Shown piece after piece: positions 4,690-63,904 of a stretch of DNA of 64,000 nt (position 1 is its first letter; each line of letters opens with the position of its first letter). The notes below the pieces were generated by a model. It had not been told where the DNA came from. It saw only the letters and a list, made by a program, of their open reading frames with translations, and did no database searches. The translations under genes were made by a program, and so were the position numbers. This DNA is from Eledone cirrhosa (lineage: Eukaryota): positions 16,988,001 to 17,052,000 of the forward strand of contig OZ024754.1 of the NCBI GenBank assembly GCA_964016885.1, given 5' to 3'.

Positions 4690-6939
4690 TTAATGATGTA
4701 TATGACGAAAAAGAAGACGATTTAGAGACGTATGACATAGATAATAAATGGAAGTTCTTACATGACAAATTGCTGCAGGCTACTGATGAAACCTGTGGCT
4801 GGAGCAGAGCTCCAACCAGACAGAGAGTGACCTGGTGGTGGAACAGCACAGTAGATAAGGCTATTAGAGACAAAAGACTAGCATGGAAGGCTTGGAAAAA
4901 GGGTGGGAGTAGGGAAGAATATACAGCCACTAAGAGAGAAGCTAGACGTCAGGTGTACTTAGCACGCAGGGAGGCAGAGAGTAGAAGGTTTGCCAATGTT
5001 CTGCGATGGGAAGATCAGAGACGTGCGGTGTTTCACATTGCAAGGCAGTGTGTCAATGCAAATCAGGATGTTGTTGGAGATAAATGTGTCCGGGATGATG
5101 CCGGTGTTCTTAGTGTCATGAATGATCAGAAAAAGGAGGCCTGGAAATGTCATTATGAGAGACTGATGAATGTGGAGAACTAATGGGAGAGAGAGAAATT
5201 ACCCTTGGTAGATCCGGCAGAGGGACCAGCTATTGAGATTGACGAATATAGGGTCCAAGAGGCGATTAGGGAAATGAAAAATGGTAAGGCGGCCGGACCA
5301 TCGGGAATAGTTGCTGAGATGCTGAAGGCATCAGGGGACGTAGGCACTAAACTGGTTGCACACATCATCAATCAGGCTATATATGGTGGTGTCATACCCA
5401 AAGACTGGTGTAGCAGTATTCTCATAAATTGCTACAAAGGTAAAGGGGATGCTTTGGAGAGGAGCAATTATAGGGGTATAAAACTGATAGATCAGGTTAT
5501 GAAAGTGGCAGAAAGGATTTTAGCACAACTAATTAGAGAAAGGGTCAAACTAGATGAGATGCAGTTTGGTTTTGTGCCTGGGAAGAGTACAACAGATGCC
5601 CTCTTCTTGGTGAGACAAATGCAAGAGAGGTTCTTAGAGAAGAATAAGCCACTATACTTAGTCTTTGTTGACCTAGAGAAGGCCTTTGATAGGGTACCCC
5701 GATCTGTCATCTGGTGGTCCCTAAGGAAGCTAAGTGTTGAGGAATGGCTTGTGAGGACAGTGCAAACTTTGTACAGAGGTACTCTCAGTAAAGTCAGGGT
5801 AGGAATGGAGTTTAGTGAGGAATTCCAGATAAAAGTAGGAGTACATCAGGGTTCGGTCCTCAGCCCGCTCTTGTTCATTATAGTCCTCCAAGCCATAACA
5901 GAGGAGTTTAAGACTGGCTGTCCATGGGAACTTCTCTATGCTGACGATCTGGTTCTTATAGCAGAATCAGTAGAGGAGCTAGAGAATAAATTCTGGCTAT
6001 GGAAACAGCAGTTGGAAGCAAGAGGACTGAGAGTGAATCTAGCTAAGACAAAAGTGTTGATGAGTAGAAAAGAGGACAAAACCCTGATTCCGTCAGGGAA
6101 ATGGCCATGTTCAATATGTAGAAAAGGAACTGGCATAAATTCTATAAAATGCACACAATGCAGATCCTGAGTACACAAGAGATGTAGCGGGATAGCAGGC
6201 AAACTAACAGGTAGGGAGAAATATGTATGCAGTAGATGTACAGGGAAATTAGACAGTAGAAGTCGCACTGATAGACACATTTTTCAAATGCAAGAGGGCG
6301 CTATAGAAGTGGTGGATAGCTTCCGGTACCTAGGAGATCAGATTAGCATGGGAGGAGGGTGTTCCGAGGCCATAGTATCTAGAATAAGGATGGGTTGGAA
6401 GAAGTTTAGGGAGCTGCTTCCTCTGTTGACGAAGAAGGGTTTCTCCCTGCGTACGAAAGGCCGGTTGTATGATGCCTGTGTGAGGAGCGCGATGCTGCAT
6501 GGTAGCGAGACATGGGCAGCAACTGCAGAGGATATGCGACGGCTGGAGAGAAATGAGGCAAGCATGCTCCGTTGGATGTGCAGTGTAAATGTGCGTGAAC
6601 GACCCAGCATAAATGTGTTGAGAGAGAAACTGTGTCTGAGAGGGATAGAATGTAGTGTACGGGAGAGGAGACTGAGGTGGTATGGACATGTGATGCGCAT
6701 GGAGGATGACCGATGGGTGAAGAAGTGCCAGGAAATGCCAGTTGAAGGAAGATGTGGTAGAGGTAGACCACGAAAAACATGGGCGGAGGTGGTGAGAACA
6801 GACCTCAGATCATTGAAGCTCACGGTGGAGATGACGAGGGACCGTGACGAGTGGAGAGATGCTGTGCTGAATAAGACCCGTCCCACCCTTGCAAGCAGGG
6901 AAAAGCGGACGTAAAATGATGATGATGATGATGATGATG
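4690..6939 (+). mobile_element. RTE-clade LINE (subfamily A), 5'-truncated, ORF2 reverse transcriptase with two in-frame stops
   Basis: ORFs 4770-5183, 5205-6170 and 6288-6914 are in one frame, broken by stops at 5181 and 6168. RT motifs KAAGPSGI, QFGFVPGKSTTDA, FVDLEKAFDRV, GVHQGSVLSPLLF, LYADD. RTE C-terminus [12 protein letters not shown]...GRGRPRKTW and a (GAT)n tail at 6917-6939. Confidence 0.96.
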
Positions 6940-7219
6940 AACCTGGTGCTTTGTTAAAGAACATTAACCTGAATGAATAATTGACTGCTTTTAGAAGAAT
7001 AATAGAAGTTTGTTTGTTTTTTTATACTGCAATATTTTAAGAAGAATTGTTACTGTATTTTTCGGGATGTAAGAAAGATCCTTATTCTGAAGAAAACTTT
7101 TGTTTTTAAAGTAAAATATGTATTCATTTTGATTAGATTTTAATATAAACTAAACTATGCATGCATATTTAAATATATAGCTATACTTATACATTATATC
7201 TGTACTATATACATATATT

Positions 7220-21419: not shown

Positions 21420-22082
21420 GAGTGGACAGTTATGATTCACAGAAGCAGGGGCAGTTTCTGGTGGGTTGGTATCAAAAGGGTTTTATGAAACCGTTACAAA
21501 AATTGAAATTTGTCAAAATGAATTGTTTGAGATTATGGATTTGCGAAAATGGGTCAAAAGGGATTATTAATTTTCTGAATTGGGTCATAGAGGATTAATT
21601 TGCTGAAATGGGTCACATAGGATTATTGATTTGCCAAAATAGGTCATAGAGGATCATTGCTAAAATGGCTTGAAGCAGCTAAATTTGGGAAACATAGCTA
21701 GTAATGTATTTATATTTTTTAAATGGATGTCTGATGGATATGTCATGGAATGCATTTCAAATAAGAAAAGTAAGTAAATATATACAAAAAGGTTTTTTTC
21801 TGTTGTGGTTTATGTATTTAACTGGGTAATTGTATAAAGTGTAAAGTGTGTTGTGCGTTTTGGTAGTTTTAACTTGTTGTATTTTGTTGTTTGGCAGGGT
21901 TGGGCAAAGAAAAATTATATATATATAAATATATATATGCAGAGGATATATTTAATTTGTTGGGATTCAACAAGCTTAAAAAATTTTATAACTGCTTAAA
22001 AAATTTATAAAGCACTCAACAGATTAGTGGAGTAAATATACAATATATTAACAAATGGAAACTATATTTATAAAACCATATT

Positions 22083-22148
22083 TATTTTATTATACATATT
22101 TCAAGGGCCACCAAGGCAAATTATGGTGCGCTTTCATCAGATAAAATA
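22083..22148 (-). ncRNA. Hammerhead ribozyme motif (left arm of palindrome 22039-22307)
   Basis: Minus strand tattttat CTGATGA aagcgcacca..tggtggccctt GAAA tatgta TA ataaaata, with a perfect 8-bp stem I. Confidence 0.82.
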
Positions 22149-22197
22149 CAATACAATACAATATGTCAATATTTATTTATAAAACAAATCTGTATTG

Positions 22198-22263
22198 TAT
22201 TTTATCTGATGAACGCGCACCATAATTTGCCTTGGTGGCCCTTGAAATATGTATAATAAAATA
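22198..22263 (+). ncRNA. Hammerhead ribozyme motif (right arm of palindrome 22039-22307)
   Basis: tattttat CTGATGA acgcgcacca..tggtggccctt GAAA tatgta TA ataaaata. Confidence 0.82.
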
Positions 22264-23326
22264 AATATGGTTTTATAAATATAGTTTCCATTTGTTAATA
22301 TATTGTAAATATATATATATGTCTGTGTGTGAGTGTGTGTATGTATATATCATGCCTCTGATACCGTGTGGACTAAGATCTCCATCGAGGATTCTCTGAT
22401 AAGATGGGTTTTTCTGTTGTGATTTTAATTTTATTTCCCAAGTAACAGGACTTTGACTTGACCATAAATATATATATAAAACATTCTTCTGTGAAATGAA
22501 AGCTCTTTTTTTCCTCTCCCCATCTCTTGGTGTTCATTCTGTTTTCATATCTGCAATGAATCAATAAATCTTAGATTTGTATTACAAGAACAGACAAACA
22601 AAACAATGAAGTTGGCGATTATTCTGTTTGAAATGTATTTCTTTCTTAGACAGAGAGTATGTTACTATTTTCACACAAACACATGTGTTTGTGTGTGATT
22701 TTCTATATACTTCCACACTGGTGTGGTTAATGCAGTTGTCCATTCTACACTTGGGTTACTTAAGATTCTGTCCTCTGGTTAGGGGAGGAGAGGAATTGCA
22801 ACAGCATGCAGTTTTTGGAAGAAAGAATTTGAAGAAAAATTGTCGCAACTTCAATCTGATTCCCAATAGATTCCATAATAAAATAGATTAATTTTACTGA
22901 CAGTTATTTACGAAAGAAAGAAATGCACTTATCCAAACATCGGCTTGGAATCTGATAAGAATGCAGTCAACGTGAAAAATACATTCTTTTATTCACCATC
23001 ATTGTTTTGTGTAGATTTTCAAATATATATTATCATAGGTTTTTTCTTTTTTTTATATCCACTTTTCTTCATACCTTGTATTTTCAATATGGTATACACA
23101 TCATCATCATCATCATTTTATGTCCCCTTTCTGCTATAAACAATAATTTAGAAAATCAGGTAAAGGATCCCTTGAGATGGAACAAAAAGGGCATGTCCAG
23201 GGGTCCTTTACCTAAACTATTATTTATAGTGATTGATTATTATTATGGTCATTTGCGTTAGATGCACACATTTGAAATTTCATATATGTTAATTTATGGG
23301 TATACACACATGCATACATATTCACA

Positions 23327-29915: not shown

Positions 29916-30081
29916 ATGTTGTTGTGGACGGGAAGAAGATAGGCATGTAGCCCTTACACGAGAAATTGCTGCTGACTATACAGAAGAACGCTGGCATCCA
30001 CTCCGCCACACTGAAGTGAAAGCAACTGATGCTTATGGAACCATAGAATTTCAGGGAGCCCCACATCCTAGTAAAGCTCAG
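29916..30081 (+). CDS. TRPM: TRPM-family (TRPM1/3-like) cation channel, next coding exon (166 bp, phase 2 to phase 0), start of the MHR1/2 region
   Basis: Acceptor ctcatttcag at 29915 and donor cag|gtaaat at 30082. Translates CCCGREEDRHVALTREIAADYTEERWHPLRHTEVKATDAYGTIEFQGAPHPSKAQ. CCCG and TDAYGTIEFQG..H..KAQ are hallmark TRPM motifs. Confidence 0.95.
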
Positions 30082-39084: not shown

Positions 39085-39215
39085 GATTATATATATATAT
39101 GTGTGTGTATATATATATATATATATGTGTGTATATATATATATTTGTCTGTGTGTATATATATATATATATATGTGTGTGTGTATATAGATATGTGTGT
39201 GTGAATATATATATA

Positions 39216-39300
<85 letters not shown>

Positions 39301-39395
39301 GTGTGTATATATATATGCGTATATATATAATATGTGTGTATATATAATATATGTATATATATAATATATGTATATATATATATATATATATGTGT
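39085..39395. repeat. (TA)n/(TG)n compound microsatellite
   Basis: Direct inspection. Confidence 0.9.
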
Positions 39396-39520
39396 AGGAG
39401 GTGAGTTTTATTGTAGTACAATAAAGCAATGCAGATATCGGATAAGAAGCACTCTACAGTTTGTAGGACTGGAGTATACATAATATATAAGATCAAAAGA
39501 TGGTTAAAGGAGTTCCATGT

Positions 39521-39589
39521 ATTTTATTATGCGCATTTCAAAAACAAACATCATCATGCAATAATATTTGTGTTTTCATCAGATAAAAC
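39521..39589 (-). ncRNA. Hammerhead ribozyme motif (left arm)
   Basis: Reverse complement of 40591-40659. Confidence 0.83.
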
Positions 39590-40590
39590 AGGAGGACATG
39601 ATATGAATGCTAAAAAACACTTGTGGATAGTGCAGTTTTAAATCAACATATGAAAAGTAATTTTAGATTGATGTGTGATATTGGGAAAATATTTTGTTTA
39701 GAGAGGGGGGTGGAAAGGATGAAAAAAAGGGGAGGAGATGAGAGTGAAGGTGGAGAGGGAGAGATGGGTGATAGAGAGAGAGAGATAGTTTTTATAACTG
39801 AGAAAGATATATTGTTTTACATAGAGAGGTTGAAAACCGTTGGAAGATAATGTATAAATTAAAAGAATTTGAAAATTAACGAAGGGAAAAATATGTACGA
39901 AGAAGGAGAGGGAGTTAATATGTATTGAGATTAAAAAGTTTGATGATAGAGAGAAAAGAATAATGTATTGCGGATGAATATTCTAACGTCAAAAAAAATT
40001 GTGTGTATGTTTAAAAGTATTATGGAAATTTGAAAATTAACGAAGAGAAAAAAATTATTAAGGTTTGTGTATTGAAGGATTTGAGAAAAATAATGTGAAG
40101 TTAAGGTTTGTATATTGAAGGAATTGATAATATGTGCGTTAATTTTCAAATTTCCATAATACTTGTAAACATACACACAATTTTTTTTGACGTTAGAATA
40201 TTCATCCGCAATACATTATTCTTTTCTCTCTATCATCAAACTTTTTAATCTCAATACATATTAACTCCCTCTCCTTCTTCGTACATATTTTTCCTTTTGT
40301 TAATTTTCAAATTCTTTTAATTTATACATTATCTTCCAACGGTTTTCAACCTCTCTATGTAAAACAATATATCTTTTCTCAGTTATAAAAACTATCTCTT
40401 TCTCTCTATCACCCATCTCTCCCTCTCCACCTTCACTCTCATCTCCTCCCCTTTTTTTCATCCTTTCCACCCCCCTCTCTAAACAAAATATTTTCCCAAT
40501 ATCACACATCAATCTAAAATTACTTTTCATATGTTGATTTAAAACTGCACTATCCACAATTTTTTTTTAGCCTTCATATCATGTCCTCCT

Positions 40591-40659
40591 GTTTTATCTG
40601 ATGAAAACACAAATATTATTGCATGATGATGTTTGTTTTTGAAATGCGCATAATAAAAT
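40591..40659 (+). ncRNA. Hammerhead ribozyme motif (right arm), predicted cleavage after ATA at 40652
   Basis: gttttat CTGATGA aaacacaaata..tgtttgttttt GAAA tgcgca TA ataaaat, with palindromic stem III TGCGCA. Confidence 0.83.
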
Positions 40660-40699
40660 ACATGGAACTCCTTTAACCATCTTTTGATCTTATATATTA

Positions 40700-40737
40700 T
40701 ATATATATATATATGTATGTATGTATATATATATATG

Positions 40738-40800
<63 letters not shown>

Positions 40801-40993
40801 ACATACACATATATATATACATACATATATATATATACATACATATATATATATACATATATATATATATACATACATATATATATATATATATACACAT
40901 ACATATATATATACACATATATATATATACATACATATATATATATACACATATATATATATATGTATGTATATATATATATATATATGTATG

Positions 40994-41024
<31 letters not shown>

Positions 41025-41069
41025 GTATGTATATATATATATGTATGTATATATATATATATATGTATG

Positions 41070-41104
<35 letters not shown>
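40700..41104. repeat. (TA)n/(TATG)n/(TACA)n compound microsatellite
   Basis: Direct inspection. Confidence 0.9.
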
Positions 41105-41105
<1 letters not shown>

Positions 41106-41499
41106 GAGAAATGAGGCAAGCATGCCCCGTTGGATGTACAGTGTAAATGTGCGTGAACGACCCAGCATTAATGTGTTGAGAGAGAAACTGTGTCTGAGAG
41201 GGATAGAATGTAGTGTACGGGAGAGGAGACTGAGGTGGTATGGACATGTGATGCGCATGGAGGATGACCGATGGCTGAAGAAGTGCCAGGAAATGCCTGT
41301 TGAAGGAAGACGTGGTAGAGGTAGACCACGAAAAACATGGGCAGAGGTGGTGAGAACAGACCTCAGATCATTGAAGCTCACGGTGGAGATGACGAAGGAC
41401 CGTGACGAGTGGAGAGATGCTGTGCTGAATAAGACCCGTCCCACCCTTGCAAGCAGGGAAAAGCGGATGTAAAATGATGATGATGAGGATGATGATGAT
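41105..41499 (+). mobile_element. RTE subfamily A 3' fragment
   Basis: Near-identical to 6547-6939, ORF 41122-41472, (GAT)n tail. Confidence 0.93.
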
Positions 41500-42058: not shown

Positions 42059-44682
42059 TTAGGGAGAGGATCAGGGGTGTATAACACTCCACTTATCCAA
42101 CAGGCAATATAAGGTTAGCTCGATGTCTGAGGACAGAGCCGTGATATAATCAATAACAAAGAACGCCTATGGCATATGCATATCTTTACTTGCTAACATT
42201 GTTTCATCCGCACTATAAGTGGGACTCATCAGAGCATAACGGTTGATTACACATCACACAAGCAATAACAAATCCAAGACATTGCAGAAATAAAGAATAA
42301 AAAATAATATAAGATAAAAAATATTGGGGAAGTAAAAATAAAAATAAACATTGAAAAATAAACATTGAAAAGTAATTGAAAAATAAGGGGTGCTATCAGT
42401 CACAGTTGGGCGGGGTGCTGTCAACATATAGTTACATACAAGCATACACATGGATAAGAGAACAGACAAGAATAGATAAGATAGATAGGAGTAGGTAAGA
42501 ATAGATAAAAAATAGGTGAAAAATAGGTAAAAAATAGACATATAATATATATAAAGGAAATATAAAAAAAACATACATATAAAATATACAGATAATAGTG
42601 ATACAGGGTAAGGAATGAAATAAAATAAAATAAAATTAAATTAAAATTAAAATTATATAAAATAAAATATAATATAATATAATAATAAGATAAAATAAAA
42701 TAAAATAAAATAAAATAAACTCAAATAAAATAATATAATATAATATAATATAAGATATAATTAAATAAAATTAAATAAATAAAATTAAATAAAATGAAAT
42801 GAAATAAAATAAAATAAGATAAAGTAAAGTAAATTGAGATAAGATATATATTTTTTTAGAATATATTTCTTGAATATATCAGGGGCCCACGAAGGCCCTA
42901 AGTGTCACAGTTATCAGTATCACTTGACCATTGCAATGCAATGGAGACGTCCCAGGTTGGGCAGTCTCAAAAGTTCACTCGAAAGTCACGGGTGTGCATT
43001 CACACAGTTGAGCGGTGGGGTAATCACAAACCGGTTCACACCCGGGCAGGAGTCCAATGGTCAACAGAGGTACATCGAAGGAAGGTAGGAGAATTCACGT
43101 GCAGCAGCAAGAGGCAGACAAGTGGGCCGAAAGCAAGCAGGTGCAGGCGGGCTAGCCGAAAGCAAGCAAATACAGTTGGGTCAGGCGGGTTAATATGCAT
43201 ACTCAACAGCGCATACAAAAGATATATAAAAAATAGCTTCAAGAGCCAATATCATGAAGTCACCGCATTGGAACATCTCAAGATTATACACACCAATATG
43301 TTCTGCACGTATATGCACACATACACACCACATGCATATGCAGAGGCGGTATACATATATATATATTTTTATATACAGACATATACAACCACCTACACCC
43401 ATACACATATAAATGTATATACAGACACACACGCACACACACACACAGCGTAGGACACCCGGGTCAAAGCTGATATTAAACACAGAAATACCACATTAGG
43501 CAAGACCCACCACCACGGATAATACATTCAAAATAAATACATACGAGGAGATGCAGTAAAATAAATCAAATTGAATTCCTACGGAGATAATCGTGTCCGC
43601 ACGTGCCATTGCCCGATTCGAGTGTACACAGACCGTTAGTAACTACGGAGGGCTATCGGGGCCAAAACGTTACTTTTGGGATAATAACAACGACCGTCAA
43701 TATATGGAAGGCCGATCGTGCTAGAAAGACTACAACACCGGGCAAGAGCTCCCAGAAGTCAGCCTGTAGATCTTAAACCACCGAATAGGAGGGCAACACG
43801 TACATGTGCCACGTATCTACTGCTTACGGCGAGATGGCACAGGTCCGCCCACAGTTACAGGCTAGATTTCTATTTGTGCAGCCTATATCACAGTACACGC
43901 TCTACATAGATACATTACATCATAACTCATGCGCATACAGAGGTACAGATCCGCAAGATACACGTCGGGATAGACCCACCAATGCACCAATGGTGGGTAG
44001 GCGAGCGTGGATGGGTTACATCCGCTGTGCCAAACAGGGGTGCTTATTAACATACACACCCATTCACCTGTACACCCCAATATCCAGATCAATATCCCCC
44101 CGCAGGCATACGTATACACTCACCGACTCATATACATAGAAGACAAACAATAGGAAACAGTTACACACAATAAGAGACAGTTACACAAGATAGCCCAACT
44201 GGAGAATTAAGGAAGTGCTAGCTAATAGGTTTAAAGTAGAAGAAAGAGCTTAATATTCGGTGGGGGCAAGAGGAAAATATTTCTGACTTTCTGTTTAGTA
44301 GAGGGCATTTAGCAAATATAATAGAGTGGGATTCGGCAAGGCATAGGTTACATACTCTATTATGAGGAGTATATGGATGGGATTTAGCAACCTGCCGCCA
44401 AGTGAGTGTGTAATGTGTTAGTGCATTTTTTAAATTCTGGACGTACGCTGCCAAGGAGGTGGAGTTCCTCAGTTTATTGTGTCTAAAAGTGCACTGGTGA
44501 GAGTTAAACCTGGTCTTAAAGGGGGTGGAGGTTGATCCTATATAGGTTTTAGTGGACGCCGTAGTTACCACATCACACGCATAAACTATGTTTCTAATAA
44601 GGCAGAAACCATTCAGGGGGCAGCCTGAAGCCCTTCTACAGTTACAATTTCTGGTGATGCTATTCTCAGAATGATCACCACT
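42059..44682 (-). mobile_element. Penelope-like element, 5'-truncated: GIY-YIG endonuclease C-terminus (44218-44680), about 2.1 kb downstream non-coding region, terminal hammerhead
   Basis: [26 protein letters not shown]...[18 protein letters not shown]...CNLCLAE...[14 protein letters not shown] is the PLE GIY-YIG domain. A hammerhead lies at 42191-42236 on the same strand, and (TA)n flanks both ends. Continuity of the whole span is inferred. Confidence 0.85.
42191..42236 (-). ncRNA. Minimal hammerhead ribozyme in the PLE terminal repeat
   Basis: Minus strand tgct CTGATGA gtcccac-ttata-gtgcggat GAAAC aat GTT agca. Confidence 0.8.
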
Positions 44683-44684
44683 TG

Positions 44685-44790
<106 letters not shown>

Positions 44791-44808
44791 TGTATGTATA
44801 TATATATG

Positions 44809-44839
<31 letters not shown>

Positions 44840-44843
44840 GTAT

Positions 44844-44874
<31 letters not shown>

Positions 44875-44927
44875 TGTATATATATATGTATGTATATATA
44901 TATGTATGTATGTATATATATATATAT

Positions 44928-45290
44928 TTGTCAAGGCAGAATTCTAGGAGAAGGAAAACTCTGATATAACACCTGCAACTCTGCTGGTATCCAATGATGT
45001 TGACTTGTTCTTCTTTTTGGTAAATATCATCTCAGTTAAGAGAGTGGGACTGGCTTTATGCAGTGCCTTTGCTCACTATAAAAGCTTCACAGCACAGGCA
45101 TTGCTTTATATCTGGAGATCTCTCTGCACTTGTCATCACATGGTACCATGTGCCCAGCACTATGTGTCAATAATTGTCACAAGTTTAGCGTTTATACCAG
45201 AATTTTCAAGTCGCTGGCTGGACTAAAAAGTCACACTCGTTCAGCGCATCGGTAGGGGTTCTCCTACGAAAACGAGTTGGCAGCCACCAT
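44928..45290. repeat. Second copy of the unclassified repeat at 15272-15767
   Basis: Near-identical sequence, flanked by (TA)n. Confidence 0.78.
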
Positions 45291-46543: not shown

Positions 46544-47794
46544 TAAAAGAGAAAACACAGGTAAGCATTAAAAAAGTATTTTATCCAGGTATTTACGACC
46601 ATTTCATTGGTAAGTGCAACCTTATATCGCTACACTGCAAATAGCAGCCACTCAATAATAATTGTTGTTCACCTCCAAATTTTCAAAATAATAAATAAGT
46701 TACTCGTAAAAGGTTCTTATTATGTAAAAAACATTTTTTGGGAATTGTATTTACTAGTATAGAGAGAGGAAGGGGGAGAATAATTAGGAAGTAGAGTGAC
46801 AAACGGAGATGGAGGGAGGGGTAAAGGTGGAAGGATTCCTCGATCAGTTTTGATTCGTAGACTTGATGTCGTCAATTTACAGTGTAGTGAGTTAAAGAGA
46901 ATTAAATTGTTTATAGTGGGAGGGAGAGAGAGAGATGGGGGGGGGGGGGGTTAGAGTGATAAATATATATATAAATAAAAGTAAAGAAGGGGGGAAGAAA
47001 ATAAAAAAAAGAAAAGATAGCAAAAAAGGGAGAGAAGAAAAGAAGAAAAAAAAAAAACTGTTCCACATTTTGAGTTCGAAGAATAAGTTTCTCAACAATA
47101 AAATCGAAAGATCAATTTATTGTAACCATAGACTCAAAGAAAAATGTTCACACTACAAGTGCAAATCGAACCCTTAACCTCTTACTACCACCTGACAAAT
47201 TGCATATACTTAGACTTTCTACGCTCTTATTGAATCTAACCCCTTTAATTACCCACAATAACCAATACCTATGTCCATCCTTTCTCCTTCATTCCTTTTT
47301 CTTTTTTCGTTTTCTTCTTTTCTTCTCTCCCTTTTTTGCTATATTTTCTTTTCTTTTCTTTTCTTTTTTTATCTTCCCCCCTTCTTTATTTTTATTTCTC
47401 TATCTCTCCCTCCCACTATAAACAATTTAATTCTCTTTAACTCGCTACACTGTAAATTGACGACATCAAGTCTACAAATCAAAACTGATCGATCGAGGAA
47501 TCCTTCCACCTTTACCCCTCCCTCCATCTCCGTTTGTCACTCTACTTCCTAATTATTCTCCCCCTTCCTCTCTCTCTATACTAGTAAATACAATTCCAAA
47601 AAATGTTTTTTACATATTAAGAACCTTTTACGAGTAACTTATTCATTATTTTGAAAATTTGGAGGTGAACAACAATTATTATTGAGTGGCTGCTATTTGC
47701 AGTATAGTGATATAAGGTTGCACTTACCAATGAAACGGTCGTAAATACCTGGATTAAATCCCTTTTTTAATGCTTACCTGTGTTTTCTCTTTTA
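46544..47794. repeat. Long inverted repeat (arms about 46544-47052 and 47309-47794, spacer about 250 bp)
   Basis: For example, taaaagagaaaacacaggtaagcattaaaaaag vs cttttttaatgcttacctgtgttttctctttta, and gaaggattcctcgatc vs gatcgaggaatccttc. Confidence 0.92.
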
Positions 47795-47949: not shown

Positions 47950-49225
47950 TTATTTTCAGAATAATTGATTATGAATAATAGCTATATGGTATGCGATGTT
48001 AGGTGTGGTAGAGTAAGAGTTTTTAATGGTATTTTTATTTATAAGATTATGGTATTTGTGGCCAGATGGAAAGTTTTTTTCTATGATTGAGAAGAAAGCC
48101 TTAGGTAAGTTGGTAGAGATGTTTAGATTGAAAGGGGGATTGAAGAATGTATTAGTTCTTCTATTTTTGTTTTTTGTAATGTCTTTTGGGGTATTTGTAT
48201 TTCTCTTTATATTATTATTGTGGTGTTTACTTTGGTGCGAGTTAAGTTTGATATTACCCTTCGTATTAGAGTAAGAGTGGCCAATACTCTTATTATTTTT
48301 CCTCATGGCCATGTGAGAAATAATGCTGTAACTATGTGATTTTATAGGTAGGAATTCAATCCCATTTTTATGGTTTGATTTAGCTAAGGCCTGATTATAG
48401 TATTGGGAATTATTGTTAAATATGGTTTCGTTATATGATAGATTAGATATTCTATTAGATATTCCTTTAGTAATTGAGTTTAATATGGATTTAGGGTGGT
48501 TAGACTTGGTATCCACATAAATTAGTTTTTCGTTTGGTTTATGAAAGGGTGTATATATTTTAGAGTCTAGGTAAAGGGTAGCACCAAGGAAGTTAACGTT
48601 TTTAGTGTTTTTATCTAAGGTGATACTTAAGTTGAAGTTTTTGAAAATTTTATGTAATAGTTTCCTAGTTCTTTCTATATTAAATTTTTTATAGTCTATA
48701 AGTAGTAGTGCATCATCGCAGTATAAACCACCATTGAGCTATGGTAGATCCTTATGGGTTTCATTTAGTAGATATAGGCCCACCAAATCAGTGACCTGCG
48801 CTGAGTCACTAGATCCCATAGTTATGTCAAAGTTGTTATGCATATCCTTGCGGGTCCATAATTGATCTTCAAATGTAATTATGATTTTTCGGGCCGCAAG
48901 TATGACATCCATCTGGGGTCTAGTCAGGTCACTATTGTTCATGGCCATAATTAGTGCCTTATTTAATAGGATATGGGAAATAGAGGTGTAGTATGAATTG
49001 ATATCAAATTGTATAAATTTTTTATTTTTATTCTCATTAATATCCTTAAACCATTCAATAACTTCACCTGTATTTCCCCATTGGTTAAGATATATTTTGT
49101 GCTTAATCTGTGGGATGATTCTATCTAATATTTTCTTGCTGATAATACCAATGTCGGATTTGGAAGGGCAGATTAGTCTTATCGAAGGGTTACTAATGTA
49201 GTCTTCTTTATGGTCCTTCAGAGAG
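47950..49225 (-). mobile_element. Penelope-like element reverse transcriptase fragment (decayed)
   Basis: Minus strand KDHKEDYISNPSIRLICPSKSDIG...NQWGNTGEVIEWF...FIQFDINSYYTSI...FDITMGSSDSAQVTDLVGLYLL...GGLYCDDAL...VNFLGATL...SNHPKSI...FFNPPFN, with at least one in-frame stop. Confidence 0.92.
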
Positions 49226-49309
49226 AATTTATATATTTATAAATTTATATATTTATTTATATATATTTATATATATATATATATATATATATTTGTATTT
49301 ATTTATCAG

Positions 49310-61371: not shown

Positions 61372-61953
61372 ATGAATATTCTAACGTCAAAAAAAGTGTG
61401 TATGTTTACAAGTATTATGGAAATTTGAAAATTAACGAAGAGAAAAAAAAAAAAATTAAGGTTTGTGTATTGAAGGATTTGAGAAAAATAATGTGAAGTT
61501 AAGGTTTGTATATTGAAGGAATTGATAATATGTGCGAAGAAAGAGTTAATATGTATTGAGAATGAGTTACATGATAGGGAGAAAAAAATAATCTGGCGTC
61601 AATGTTTACTCATTACCCTTACTCTATTTTCACCTTGTAAAATCCTTCGTAACATATACATTTGTTTTGACACCAGATTATTCATCCTTAATTCATTATT
61701 TTTTTCTCCCTATCATCTAACTTATTCTCAATACATATTAACTCTTTCTTCGCACATATTATCAATTCCTTCAATATACAAACCTTAACTTCACATTATT
61801 TTTCTCAATCCTTCAATACACAAACCTTAATTTTTTTTTTTTTTTTCTCTTCGTTAATTTTCAAATTTCCATAATACTTGTAAACATACACACTTTTTTT
61901 GACGTTAGAATATTCATCCGCAATTCATTACTCTATTCTCTCTATCATCAAAC
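61372..61953. repeat. Inverted repeat (arms about 61372-61592 and 61695-61917) homologous to the centre of the 39479-40700 palindrome
   Basis: atgaatattctaacgtcaaaaaaa..gaaaattaacgaagag..aaggaattgataatatgtgcg is shared with 39975-40138. Confidence 0.88.
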
Positions 61954-63852
61954 GTTGCAACCGGAAGAAGACAGGAAGACGATACTTTGGTTCGTGGAAA
62001 CGTTCACTGGCAAAGAACGGGAAAAAACGAATAATACGTCATTAATAGGAGCGGTGAAAAACAATTACGCGCAAAGACAGAACCACGTTTATGGTATAAT
62101 AGAGGTCGTAGACTAATGTTCTCTTAGGTGGGGCATAGAGACGTTCTCTGGCGATGAACGAAAAAAACGAAGATAATACGTCATATGTGGAGCGTGGAGA
62201 ACAATAGCACGCAAAGACAAAACCACGTAAATGGTATAGCAGAAGTCGTAGACTAAATTCTAACTAGGAGACCGAATGAATCTCCGCTACAGAGTTAAGA
62301 ACAAAGTAAATAAATACAATACAGAAGTAATAGAAATAAATAAATACATACACGCAAACAGAAACGTACATACACAAGCATACGCAAAAACTTACCATAG
62401 GTAAACAAAACCACGCACATATAAATATGTGTGTGTGTAAGCATGTATACAAATAAATAAATAATTATATAAACGTATATAAATAAATAAATACGTATAT
62501 AACAAGCGCACACACATACCTAAATGTAAATACACGAATGTTCAGAGACGTAAGTCAACCAAAACATGAGGTACACATATACACATATACACACGCCCTA
62601 CATACGTACGAACCTGCATACTCACACAGACGCAAAACTCCCGTATACACATAGCTGAACCATATGTACCAGAATATATAAAAAAATTATACGCCATAAC
62701 AATCAAATATTCGTCCGAGAAGGTATACATACCTTCACAAAACATACGGATAATATATACTTACCTATGCAAATAAGTAAAGGTATAAATAAAACATATA
62801 CTTAGCTTCCACATCGAGACGTAAAATATCCACGTATAGATCGTACTATCCGTTAGGGTATAACATGGGGCTGTAATACAGGAAAGTTTTGTGCAATTTA
62901 TGTTTACAAGCCGAAATTGCCTCAGATTTTTTGTTTAAGATGTGGTCTGTGGCGTAGAGTATTTCCAGGGCCTCAGCGGCGCAGAGGTCACATGGTCTTT
63001 TATTTCCATTATACGATCTAGCCCTCGCTAGAATCTCCCAGTGTAACTTATATTGGGTGTGGTTGTCTGTTAGACTCCAGATATAAGCTGAAAGTGACGT
63101 CATATTCCTTCTTAGAGGGTAACGAAAAGAATGGGTATGCATGTAAAGACGCTGCTTGAATCTATTGGCGGTTAACCCTATGTAGGCCCTACGGGACGTG
63201 GGTGTTACAACCTTACATTTGTAGACAATGTTACTAGAGAGGCATTTCCCGGATAGAGGGCTATCAACCCGATTCCTACAATTACAGTTAGTACTACCTA
63301 CAGGGTTGCACGTGTTCCTATGGCTAGGTAGTTTAGCTAAATTTGAAGCTGTGATGTTATGTGCAAGGTTAGGAGTCGTAGAGTAAGAAATTTTAATAGT
63401 ATTTCTATTAAAAATTTTACTATATTTATGTGTAGGGGGAAAATGCTTCGTAATAAGGGAAAGAAAGATCTTAGCTAATGATGTGGCCACCTCCATATTA
63501 TATGGTGGGTTATACCAACAAATGCGACGGGATCTATTTCTTCTAGTTCTATTTTCGTACTCTGTATATGCTACCTTATCGACAAATCCACTTCGAGCAA
63601 GAGCTTCATTGTAATAAGTGGAATGGTCGTTGAAAATGCGCTCGTTGGTGGAAAGACGGGAAAGCCTCAACGAAACGTTTCTTACCAGGTTCTTGGTTAT
63701 GCTGGCAGGATGGTTGGAATGCTTACTTATGTAATTAAGCGTATCATTCGGCTTTCTATACGGGTAATACAACCCATTCAATAAGTTGAGGGTAACATCG
63801 AGGTAATTAACGACCGAGAGATTGGCCTCAACCTGTATAGAGAGGTTGAAGC

Positions 63853-63853
<1 letters not shown>
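61952..63853 (-). mobile_element. Penelope-like element, 5'-truncated: RT thumb, linker and GIY-YIG endonuclease (open frame 62846 to about 63850) with downstream non-coding region
   Basis: VNYLDVTLNL..YYPYRKPN..SNHPASI..WYNPPYN..KIFNRNTIKISYS..CNCRNRVDSPLSGKCLSSNIVYKC..AYIGLTANRFKQR..CDLCAAE..LNKKSE. The 3' region includes a duplicated unit of about 125-140 bp (61997-62121 and 62138-62260). Confidence 0.92.

Positions 63854-63854
<1 letters not shown>

Positions 63855-63904
<50 letters not shown>

What the first reader, a model, noticed from the sequence alone, without database searches (positions are those of the whole stretch)
39479..40700. 1.2 kb near-perfect hairpin with a hammerhead near the outer end of each arm
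Seen: arms of about 560 bp, a spacer of about 95 bp, few mismatches, no credible ORF, a hammerhead with palindromic TGCGCA stem III in each arm, and (TA)n arrays on both sides. The left side has about 85 extra bp (39395-39478) that look like the element's true 3' end. This fits the inverted-pLTR arrangement known for Penelope elements, but without any coding region. If transcribed in the TRPM pre-mRNA it would form a long dsRNA, a strong ADAR or Dicer substrate in a lineage known for extensive A-to-I editing if the host is a coleoid.
Basis: partly seen in the sequence, partly recalled or inferred. Interest (0 to 1): 0.7.

Follow-up and report, generated by a model that had tools for sequence, protein, structure and literature searches.

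The report
Back-to-back Penelope retroelement ends, primed twice
This 1.2 kb hairpin is one of many near-identical, broken copies of a known kind of jumping gene; its two arms end at two different fixed sites, which likely means the element's RNA was copied from both sides of the cut DNA, and any effect on the ion-channel gene around it is untested.

Summary
The hairpin is real: arms 39475-40042 and 40137-40705, 7 internal substitutions and 1 indel, 94-nt loop, type I hammerhead with palindromic TGCGCA in each arm, (TA)n on both sides. It is the 5'-truncated 3' end of a young Hydra-clade Penelope-like element plus an inverted second copy. Intact 797-800 aa parents exist elsewhere in the genome. 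It is not special: 50 of 60 sampled tail-bearing ends carry such an inverted arm. All 50 inverted arms lack the 85-nt tail, and 10 of 10 full-length copies with an inverted tailed arm have a tail-less 3' end. The arms share subfamily alleles, and in 14 of 50 the tail-less arm is the longer one. Best reading: both target strands primed reverse transcription, at two different RNA sites, and the cDNAs were joined by microhomology. The hairpin lies in a predicted 51.5-kb intron of a TRPM3-like gene; its sense hammerhead is predicted to be buried in the duplex. Editing and small RNAs could not be tested. The scan noted the same architecture before on other DNA of this genome. Known kind; modest mechanistic value.

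The parts
39088..39391 (.). left (TA)n target array
39395..40138 (-). tailed arm: last 744 nt of a Hydra-clade Penelope-like element (3' UTR, pLTR, hammerhead, tail); its inner 94 nt form the loop
   Evidence: colinear with copies that run on into the endonuclease ORF
39395..39479 (-). 85-nt tail, present on this arm only; in partial tandems it continues into the leader and the ATG 81 nt further on
39454..39468 (-). motif TCCT-NNA-NNN-TNN-AG just behind the tail-less end; its twin lies behind the tailed end in the leader (absent from this locus); candidate start signal, inferred
39522..39588 (-). type I hammerhead motif, palindromic stem III TGCGCA, antisense to the TRPM gene
39647..39652 (-). 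CATATG, inner boundary of the pLTR where most arms of the family stop (likely RNA 5' end, inferred); both arms here run past it
40137..40138 (.). head-to-head junction; 2-nt CG microhomology with 40041-40042
40137..40700 (+). tail-less inverted arm (element positions 648 to about 86 from the tail end), ending in TTATATATTAT at the TA array
40592..40658 (+). type I hammerhead motif in TRPM sense; predicted cut after 40652; paired to the left arm in the folded hairpin
40691..41105 (.). right (TA)n target array
29916..30081 (+). TRPM3-like exon; the predicted intron from 30082 to G000:C14:17069626 (about 51.5 kb) holds the hairpin

Best explanation
The hairpin is a single, 5'-truncated insertion of a young Hydra-clade Penelope-like retroelement into a (TA)n array, likely made when both strands of the cut target primed reverse transcription at two different fixed sites of the element's RNA and the two cDNAs were joined head to head. 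Shown: element identity, two fixed outer ends 85 nt apart, strict pairing of one tailed with one tail-less end, same-subfamily arms. Inferred: (1) the element's endonuclease cuts (TA)n on both strands; (2) one 3' end anneals to the UA-rich stretch before the tail, the other to the AU(UA) at the tail end; (3) each cDNA runs toward the RNA 5' end and stops, at 648 and 744 nt here; (4) the cDNA ends join through 2 nt (CG) of microhomology. Because both arms pass the pLTR boundary, the template likely extended upstream of it (multimer or circle). The copy is dead as a retroelement. In TRPM pre-mRNA it would form a ~565-bp duplex that masks its hammerhead and would likely be edited passively, like other young inverted repeats.
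For: 542 candidates, the 40 scored full matches at 98-100% identity. Copies continue into an RT + endonuclease ORF; 6 of 20 leader-bearing copies have 790-800 aa open frames. 52 of 60 tail-bearing loci have an adjacent inverted segment; 50 of these end 79-88 nt short of the tail end, none has a tail, 2 are internal inversions. Reciprocal: 10 of 10 full-length copies with an inverted tailed arm have a tail-less 3' end (20 loci examined). The tail-less arm reaches more than 20 nt further in than the tailed arm in 14 of 50, and in L082 the arms do not overlap at all; a fold-back of the tailed strand cannot give this. Arms agree at a 45:55 subfamily site in 40 of 42 pairs; arm-arm difference 1.2% against 2.6% for shuffled pairs, 0 of 2000 shuffles as low. 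Junctions overlap by 1-13 nt in 29 of 52, and several carry locally templated insertions. In vitro, a Poseidon element cleaves and extends both target strands and starts at two sites that bound the tail (PMC11167929).
Against: All evidence is from inserted copies; no intermediate was seen. For this locus alone a fold-back fits equally well: the tailed arm is the longer one and supplies the loop. Asymmetric deletions in hairpin centres after insertion could mimic some long tail-less arms. The 60 loci were the first listed exact matches (57 on C1, 3 on C2), biased to one young subfamily. Subfamily concordance cannot tell one RNA from two RNAs made at the same time. The twin start motif folds weakly at the tailed site (-0.1 kcal/mol for the 5-bp form). 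[quoted passage not shown]
Confidence: 0.75

Rival explanations
1. Fold-back (self-priming): one cDNA primed at the tail end ran 744 nt, snapped back on CG, copied itself, and was cut or annealed at the TA-like site before the tail.
For: Fits this locus. Explains same-allele arms and correlated arm lengths. Self-priming was proposed for Penelope from junction palindromes (PMC3846280, passages). 8 of 52 junctions overlap by 6 nt, 7 of them on the CATATG palindrome.
Against: Tail-less arm longer than the tailed arm in 14 of 50, by more than 1 kb in L096, L111 and L126. Full-length tail-less copies carry short inverted tailed arms, whose priming side cannot supply a tail by self-copy.
Confidence: 0.12
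2. Co-opted regulatory hairpin: kept because it controls editing, splicing or silencing of the TRPM transcript.
For: Lies in a predicted TRPM intron; predicted duplex of 583 pairs, -937 kcal/mol; young repeats are the main A-to-I targets in animals (PMC9989829, passages).
Against: Arm divergence 7 of ~565 (1.2%) equals the family mean of 1.2%, with no compensatory change; it is 9.3 kb and 41 kb from the flanking exons; the family makes such hairpins routinely.
Confidence: 0.05
3. Two independent insertions, or a later rearrangement, put two copies back to back.
For: (TA)n arrays are repeated targets; L135 and L157 have two insertions within a few hundred to 4000 nt.
Against: No target DNA between the arms; 50 of 60 loci show the same adjacency and polarity; arms share subfamily alleles.
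Confidence: 0.04
4. Assembly artefact from fold-back reads.
For: No laid contig spans the locus; the TA arrays break short-read contigs.
Against: The arms differ at 7 internal sites, 3 departing from the family in one arm and 4 in the other, and end at the two family-specific sites. Short-read contigs of three runs of one sample hold the family's commonest head-to-head joint (39651 to 40529) at summed depth 650-812.
Confidence: 0.03

Closest known systems
Hydra clade of C-terminal EN+ Penelope-like elements, e.g. Hydra-1_Obim (Craig et al. 2021, PMC8557442; passages, section 11, parts of the supplement)
   Same: RT followed by GIY-YIG-type endonuclease, DKT, CxCX5C linker, no CCHH, CxxC and CxH around the conserved E and N, hammerhead near the 3' end, (TA)n target; 5'-truncated inverted copy as noted for Penelope-13_HM.
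   Different: Different family (other hammerhead sequence than Hydra-1_Obim); unit about 3.5-3.6 kb instead of under 3 kb; RWI/RWT instead of RWK; N-rich stretch before the linker; tail 85 nt instead of 30-40.
Tail and two internal RT start sites of Poseidon_Ac (Frangieh et al. 2024, PMC11167929; main text and start of methods read)
   Same: Two fixed ends bounding a tail downstream of a hammerhead; AT-rich target; both strands extended in vitro; no pile-up of ends at the hammerhead cut (1 of 60 tailed arms begins within 3 nt of it).
   Different: There the tail lies in the ORF; here it lies 81 nt before the ATG. That paper does not report that each insertion uses one site per strand.
L1 twin priming and dual priming (PMC2837659, passages)
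   Same: Second target strand primes a second cDNA; head-to-head junction with short microhomology.
   Different: L1 twin priming is occasional and gives non-overlapping pieces; here it appears to be the rule, uses a fixed second site, and the two cDNAs usually overlap, giving long hairpins.
Metazoan PLE hammerheads with palindromic helix III (Cervera and de la Pena 2014, PMC4209133, passages)
   Same: Type I, no stable monomeric helix III, palindrome suited to a dimer (ATGCGCAT self-duplex -10.5 kcal/mol).
   Different: Long 36-nt stem II; cleavage not tested here.

Membership tests
EN+ Penelope-like element | single ORF with RT and GIY-YIG endonuclease in the parent | tested here: met
   797-800 aa ORFs with QFD, YRDD and IYEC..YFG; atlas neighbours at 0.95-0.98 carry HTH_animal, GIY-YIG, RVT_1 on part of their members. 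Pfam and PDB sequence searches gave nothing significant.
EN+ Penelope-like element | partial tandems forming pLTRs, inverted 5'-truncated copy, one-sided tail | tested here: met
EN+ Penelope-like element | hammerhead motif in the pLTR | tested here: met
   209 of 225 anchored motifs in the held loci (some loci held twice) keep TGCGCA
Hydra clade | DKG changed to DKT | tested here: met
   DKTN at residue 123 (definition)
Hydra clade | CxCX5C linker, no CCHH inside GIY-YIG, CxxC and CxH flanking E and N | tested here: met
   CNCRIKNKC, one Cys in the core, CNLC..E, CLH in 5 of 6 long ORFs; L157 has a mutated linker
Hydra clade | RWK motif | tested here: inconclusive
   RWI or RWT at the equivalent place
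Hydra clade | (TA)n insertion preference | tested here: met
Hydra clade | generally under 3 kb | tested here: not met
   unit about 3.5-3.6 kb; given as a tendency in the source, not as a defining trait
Hydra clade | RT phylogeny | not tested
   reference proteins were only read in the supplement; no tree was built
Neptune clade | CX2-5CxxC linker and CCHH motif | tested here: not met
   my first guess, dropped
non-LTR retrozyme | short non-coding hammerhead unit in head-to-tail arrays | tested here: not met
   arms are the 3' end of a coding element, head to head
active hammerhead ribozyme | self-cleavage | not testable with these tools
   monomer fold does not form helix III
ADAR or Dicer substrate | A-to-I clusters or siRNAs over the arms | not testable with these tools
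   no raw RNA reads of this stretch were offered

The most novel reading that the evidence does not exclude
Penelope-like elements insert by obligatory double priming from one RNA: each target strand starts at its own marked site, and long copies are made from an endless template, a unit-length RNA circle cut out by dimeric hammerheads, while the linear transcript that starts at the pLTR yields only short 170-260 nt hairpins. Signs: every long tailed arm has a long tail-less partner (11/0/4/35, p = 4e-8); 31 of 46 tail-less arms that reach the pLTR boundary stop there, but only 1 of 11 upstream partial units of full-length copies does (p = 6e-4). This would give the hammerhead the role that in vitro work has not found and make each insertion a ready-made dsRNA source.
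Probability: 0.3. Interest if true: 0.7.

Novelty: new member of a known kind. Interest (0 to 1): 0.35.

Why it matters
The locus itself is ordinary. The family gives a counted rule (one tailed and one tail-less end per insertion, in both polarities) that constrains how Penelope-like elements, relatives of telomerase, integrate; this is still an open question. It names a concrete RNA-protein pair (intact 797-800 aa ORFs, two start sites) for a test. It also means one young family has put probably a thousand or more near-perfect hairpins into this genome, a large passive pool of dsRNA wherever they are transcribed.

Tried and rejected
Rfam did not find the hammerheads; Pfam and PDB did not recognise the parent ORF; the protein search gave only 2 unnamed relatives at 33-34%. 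Neptune clade: rejected on motifs. Link of the arms to the Helitron at 57.8-61 kb: the shared DNA at 61372-61956 is this element's 3' UTR. Hammerhead cut as a common arm end: 1 of 60. Fossil A-to-G editing in the arms: one A-to-G on the + strand, at a site variable in other copies. Strong gene conversion between arms: only 5 locus-private alleles shared by both arms against 116 private to one arm, in 64 pairs. A model in which one arm always comes from a 5' pLTR that starts at the boundary: fails for the 11 of 50 loci with two long arms. Read data: contigs of X1-X4 stop at the TA arrays and cannot bridge the locus; the window's private base at 40014 was not seen among them, which is no evidence since such contigs drop rare variants; X4 is of unknown kind and was not used as RNA evidence. 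Search of earlier notes by this sequence gave nothing.

Full report
Observation. The inverted repeat is as described. The arms align over 568 columns (39475-40042 with 40137-40705), with 7 internal substitutions, 1 edge mismatch and 1 indel, around a 94-nt loop. Each arm holds a type I hammerhead motif with palindromic stem III TGCGCA, at +40592 and -39588; Rfam misses them. TA arrays flank both sides. The two motifs are on opposite strands.

Identity. The outer 306 nt have 542 candidates in the 3.0-Gb own genome; the 40 scored full matches are 98-100% identical. Read on the minus strand, the left arm continues in other copies through a repetitive 3' UTR into an endonuclease and RT frame. In partial tandems the extra 85 nt run straight into a leader and an ATG 81 nt later, so they are the 'tail' known from Penelope-like elements. 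Of 20 leader-bearing copies, 6 have open frames of 790-800 aa. The protein has DKT, CxCX5C, no CCHH, and CxxC/CxH around E and N, the marks of the Hydra clade (PMC8557442 section 11), and resembles Hydra-1_Obim by eye (supplement passages), though it is another family. I first guessed Neptune; an earlier scan note (e1-9560118) pointed to Hydra, and the motifs bear that out. No tree was built.

The layout is the family rule. Exact counts: 536 tail-bearing 44-mers and 2014 tail-less ends running into TA (33-mer); the patterns differ in length, so the ratio is rough. I fetched the first 60 listed tail-bearing places. 52 of 60 have an adjacent inverted segment and 8 are solo; 50 of the 52 inverted arms end 79-88 nt short of the tail end, none carries a tail, and 2 are internal inversions. 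Of the first 30 tail-less matches, 15 have an inverted tailed partner within 1.5 kb (3 of these are also among the 60), one more is a mutated tailed arm with a tail-less partner, and none shows two tail-less arms head to head within that range. In 20 of the 25 leader-bearing loci fetched at length, all 10 with an inverted tailed arm have a tail-less 3' end; the 1 with a complete inverted tail-less arm has a tailed 3' end; 2 inverted arms ran off the fetched stretch. Short-read contigs of one sample hold the commonest head-to-head joint independently of the assembly. That the tail is often on one side only is already in print (PMC8557442; PMC3846280).

Mechanism. Both outer ends sit at short TA-like stretches: TTATATATTAT before the tail and AT or ATTA at the tail end. 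A 15-nt motif TCCT-NNA-NNN-TNN-AG lies just behind each and nowhere else in about 3.8 kb (lead from e1-8673755); its 5-bp hairpin is -3.3 kcal/mol at the first site but only -0.1 at the second, so the structure is not established. The arms come from the same source class: 40 of 42 pairs agree at a 45:55 site, and arm-arm difference is 1.2% against 2.6% shuffled. Fold-back of the tailed strand fails family-wide, because the tail-less arm is the longer by more than 20 nt in 14 of 50 (7 of 50 the other way) and by more than 1 kb in three loci; for this one locus fold-back cannot be excluded. Junctions overlap by 1-13 nt in 29 of 52 and several have locally templated insertions, which from my own knowledge is typical of microhomology-mediated end joining; here the overlap is CG. 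Double priming fits the in vitro finding that a Poseidon protein extends both target strands from two internal start sites (PMC11167929) and parallels L1 twin or dual priming (PMC2837659). Searches found no paper stating one start site per strand for these elements; the older subscription papers are not in the library, and the supplement of PMC11167929 was not read.

Template. 31 of 50 tail-less arms and 4 of 8 solo tailed copies stop at the CATATG boundary about 257 nt from the tail end, likely an RNA 5' end (inferred). Long tailed arms always have long partners (11/0/4/35), and 10 of 11 upstream partial units that reach the boundary pass it. This points to two template classes, a linear RNA and a multimer or circle. 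This locus (744 and 648 nt) belongs to the second. Circle, read-through of tandem sources and strand transfer between pLTRs cannot be told apart from DNA. RNA circles of retrozymes I saw only as search listings and abstract starts.

Host gene. The exon at 29916-30081 matches TRPM3 (E 1.5e-9). It ends in phase 0, and the next matching exon starts at G000:C14:17069627 in phase 0 with the LSDAT domain, so the hairpin lies in a predicted 51.5-kb intron; no spliced read was seen. In that pre-mRNA the antisense arm is made first, and the predicted fold (-937 kcal/mol, 583 pairs) pairs the sense hammerhead with it, so self-cleavage of the transcript is unlikely. Editing of young inverted repeats is general in animals (PMC9989829 passages) and is likely here if the intron is transcribed, but no RNA reads were available. 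The arms show neutral, family-average divergence and no A-to-G cluster. The host species was not determined.

Verdict. Real, explained, a new member of a known kind. Interest 0.35, carried by the family-wide counts rather than by this locus. The scan has noted the same end rule on other DNA of this genome (e1-8802548, e1-8673755, e1-9525717); those are unchecked notes, not independent support.

Noticed in passing
window 21940-22313: A second, unrelated hammerhead hairpin (stem III TATGTA) with the same layout: about 90-nt tail on the left arm, tail-less right arm into (TA)n.
   Followed up: partly
window 61372-61956: Inverted pair made of this family's 3' UTR, without pLTR or hammerhead, right after a decayed Helitron at 57.8-61.0 kb.
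   Followed up: partly
window 62846-63904 (-), 47956-49236 (-), 44218-44943 (-): Further Penelope-like ORF pieces; 62846-63904 is 33% identical to the family ORF and has Hydra-type motifs. An 86% inverted pair at 46544-47794 lies beside the second.
   Followed up: partly
L119, L121, L128, L094, L141 junctions: Head-to-head junctions contain 20-38 nt insertions copied from adjacent sequence.
   Followed up: no
L022:4520, L120, L149, L155, L165, L166: Several full-length copies begin almost exactly at the tail end of the upstream unit, as if synthesis stopped at the other start site.
   Followed up: no
window 41107-41498: 3' fragment of a LINE, 97% identical to 6547-6940, inserted in the TA array just right of the hairpin.
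   Followed up: no
window 39408-39426 (-): Perfect 8-bp stem TTTATTGT/ACAATAAA with a 3-nt loop inside the tail (z -2.9).
   Followed up: no
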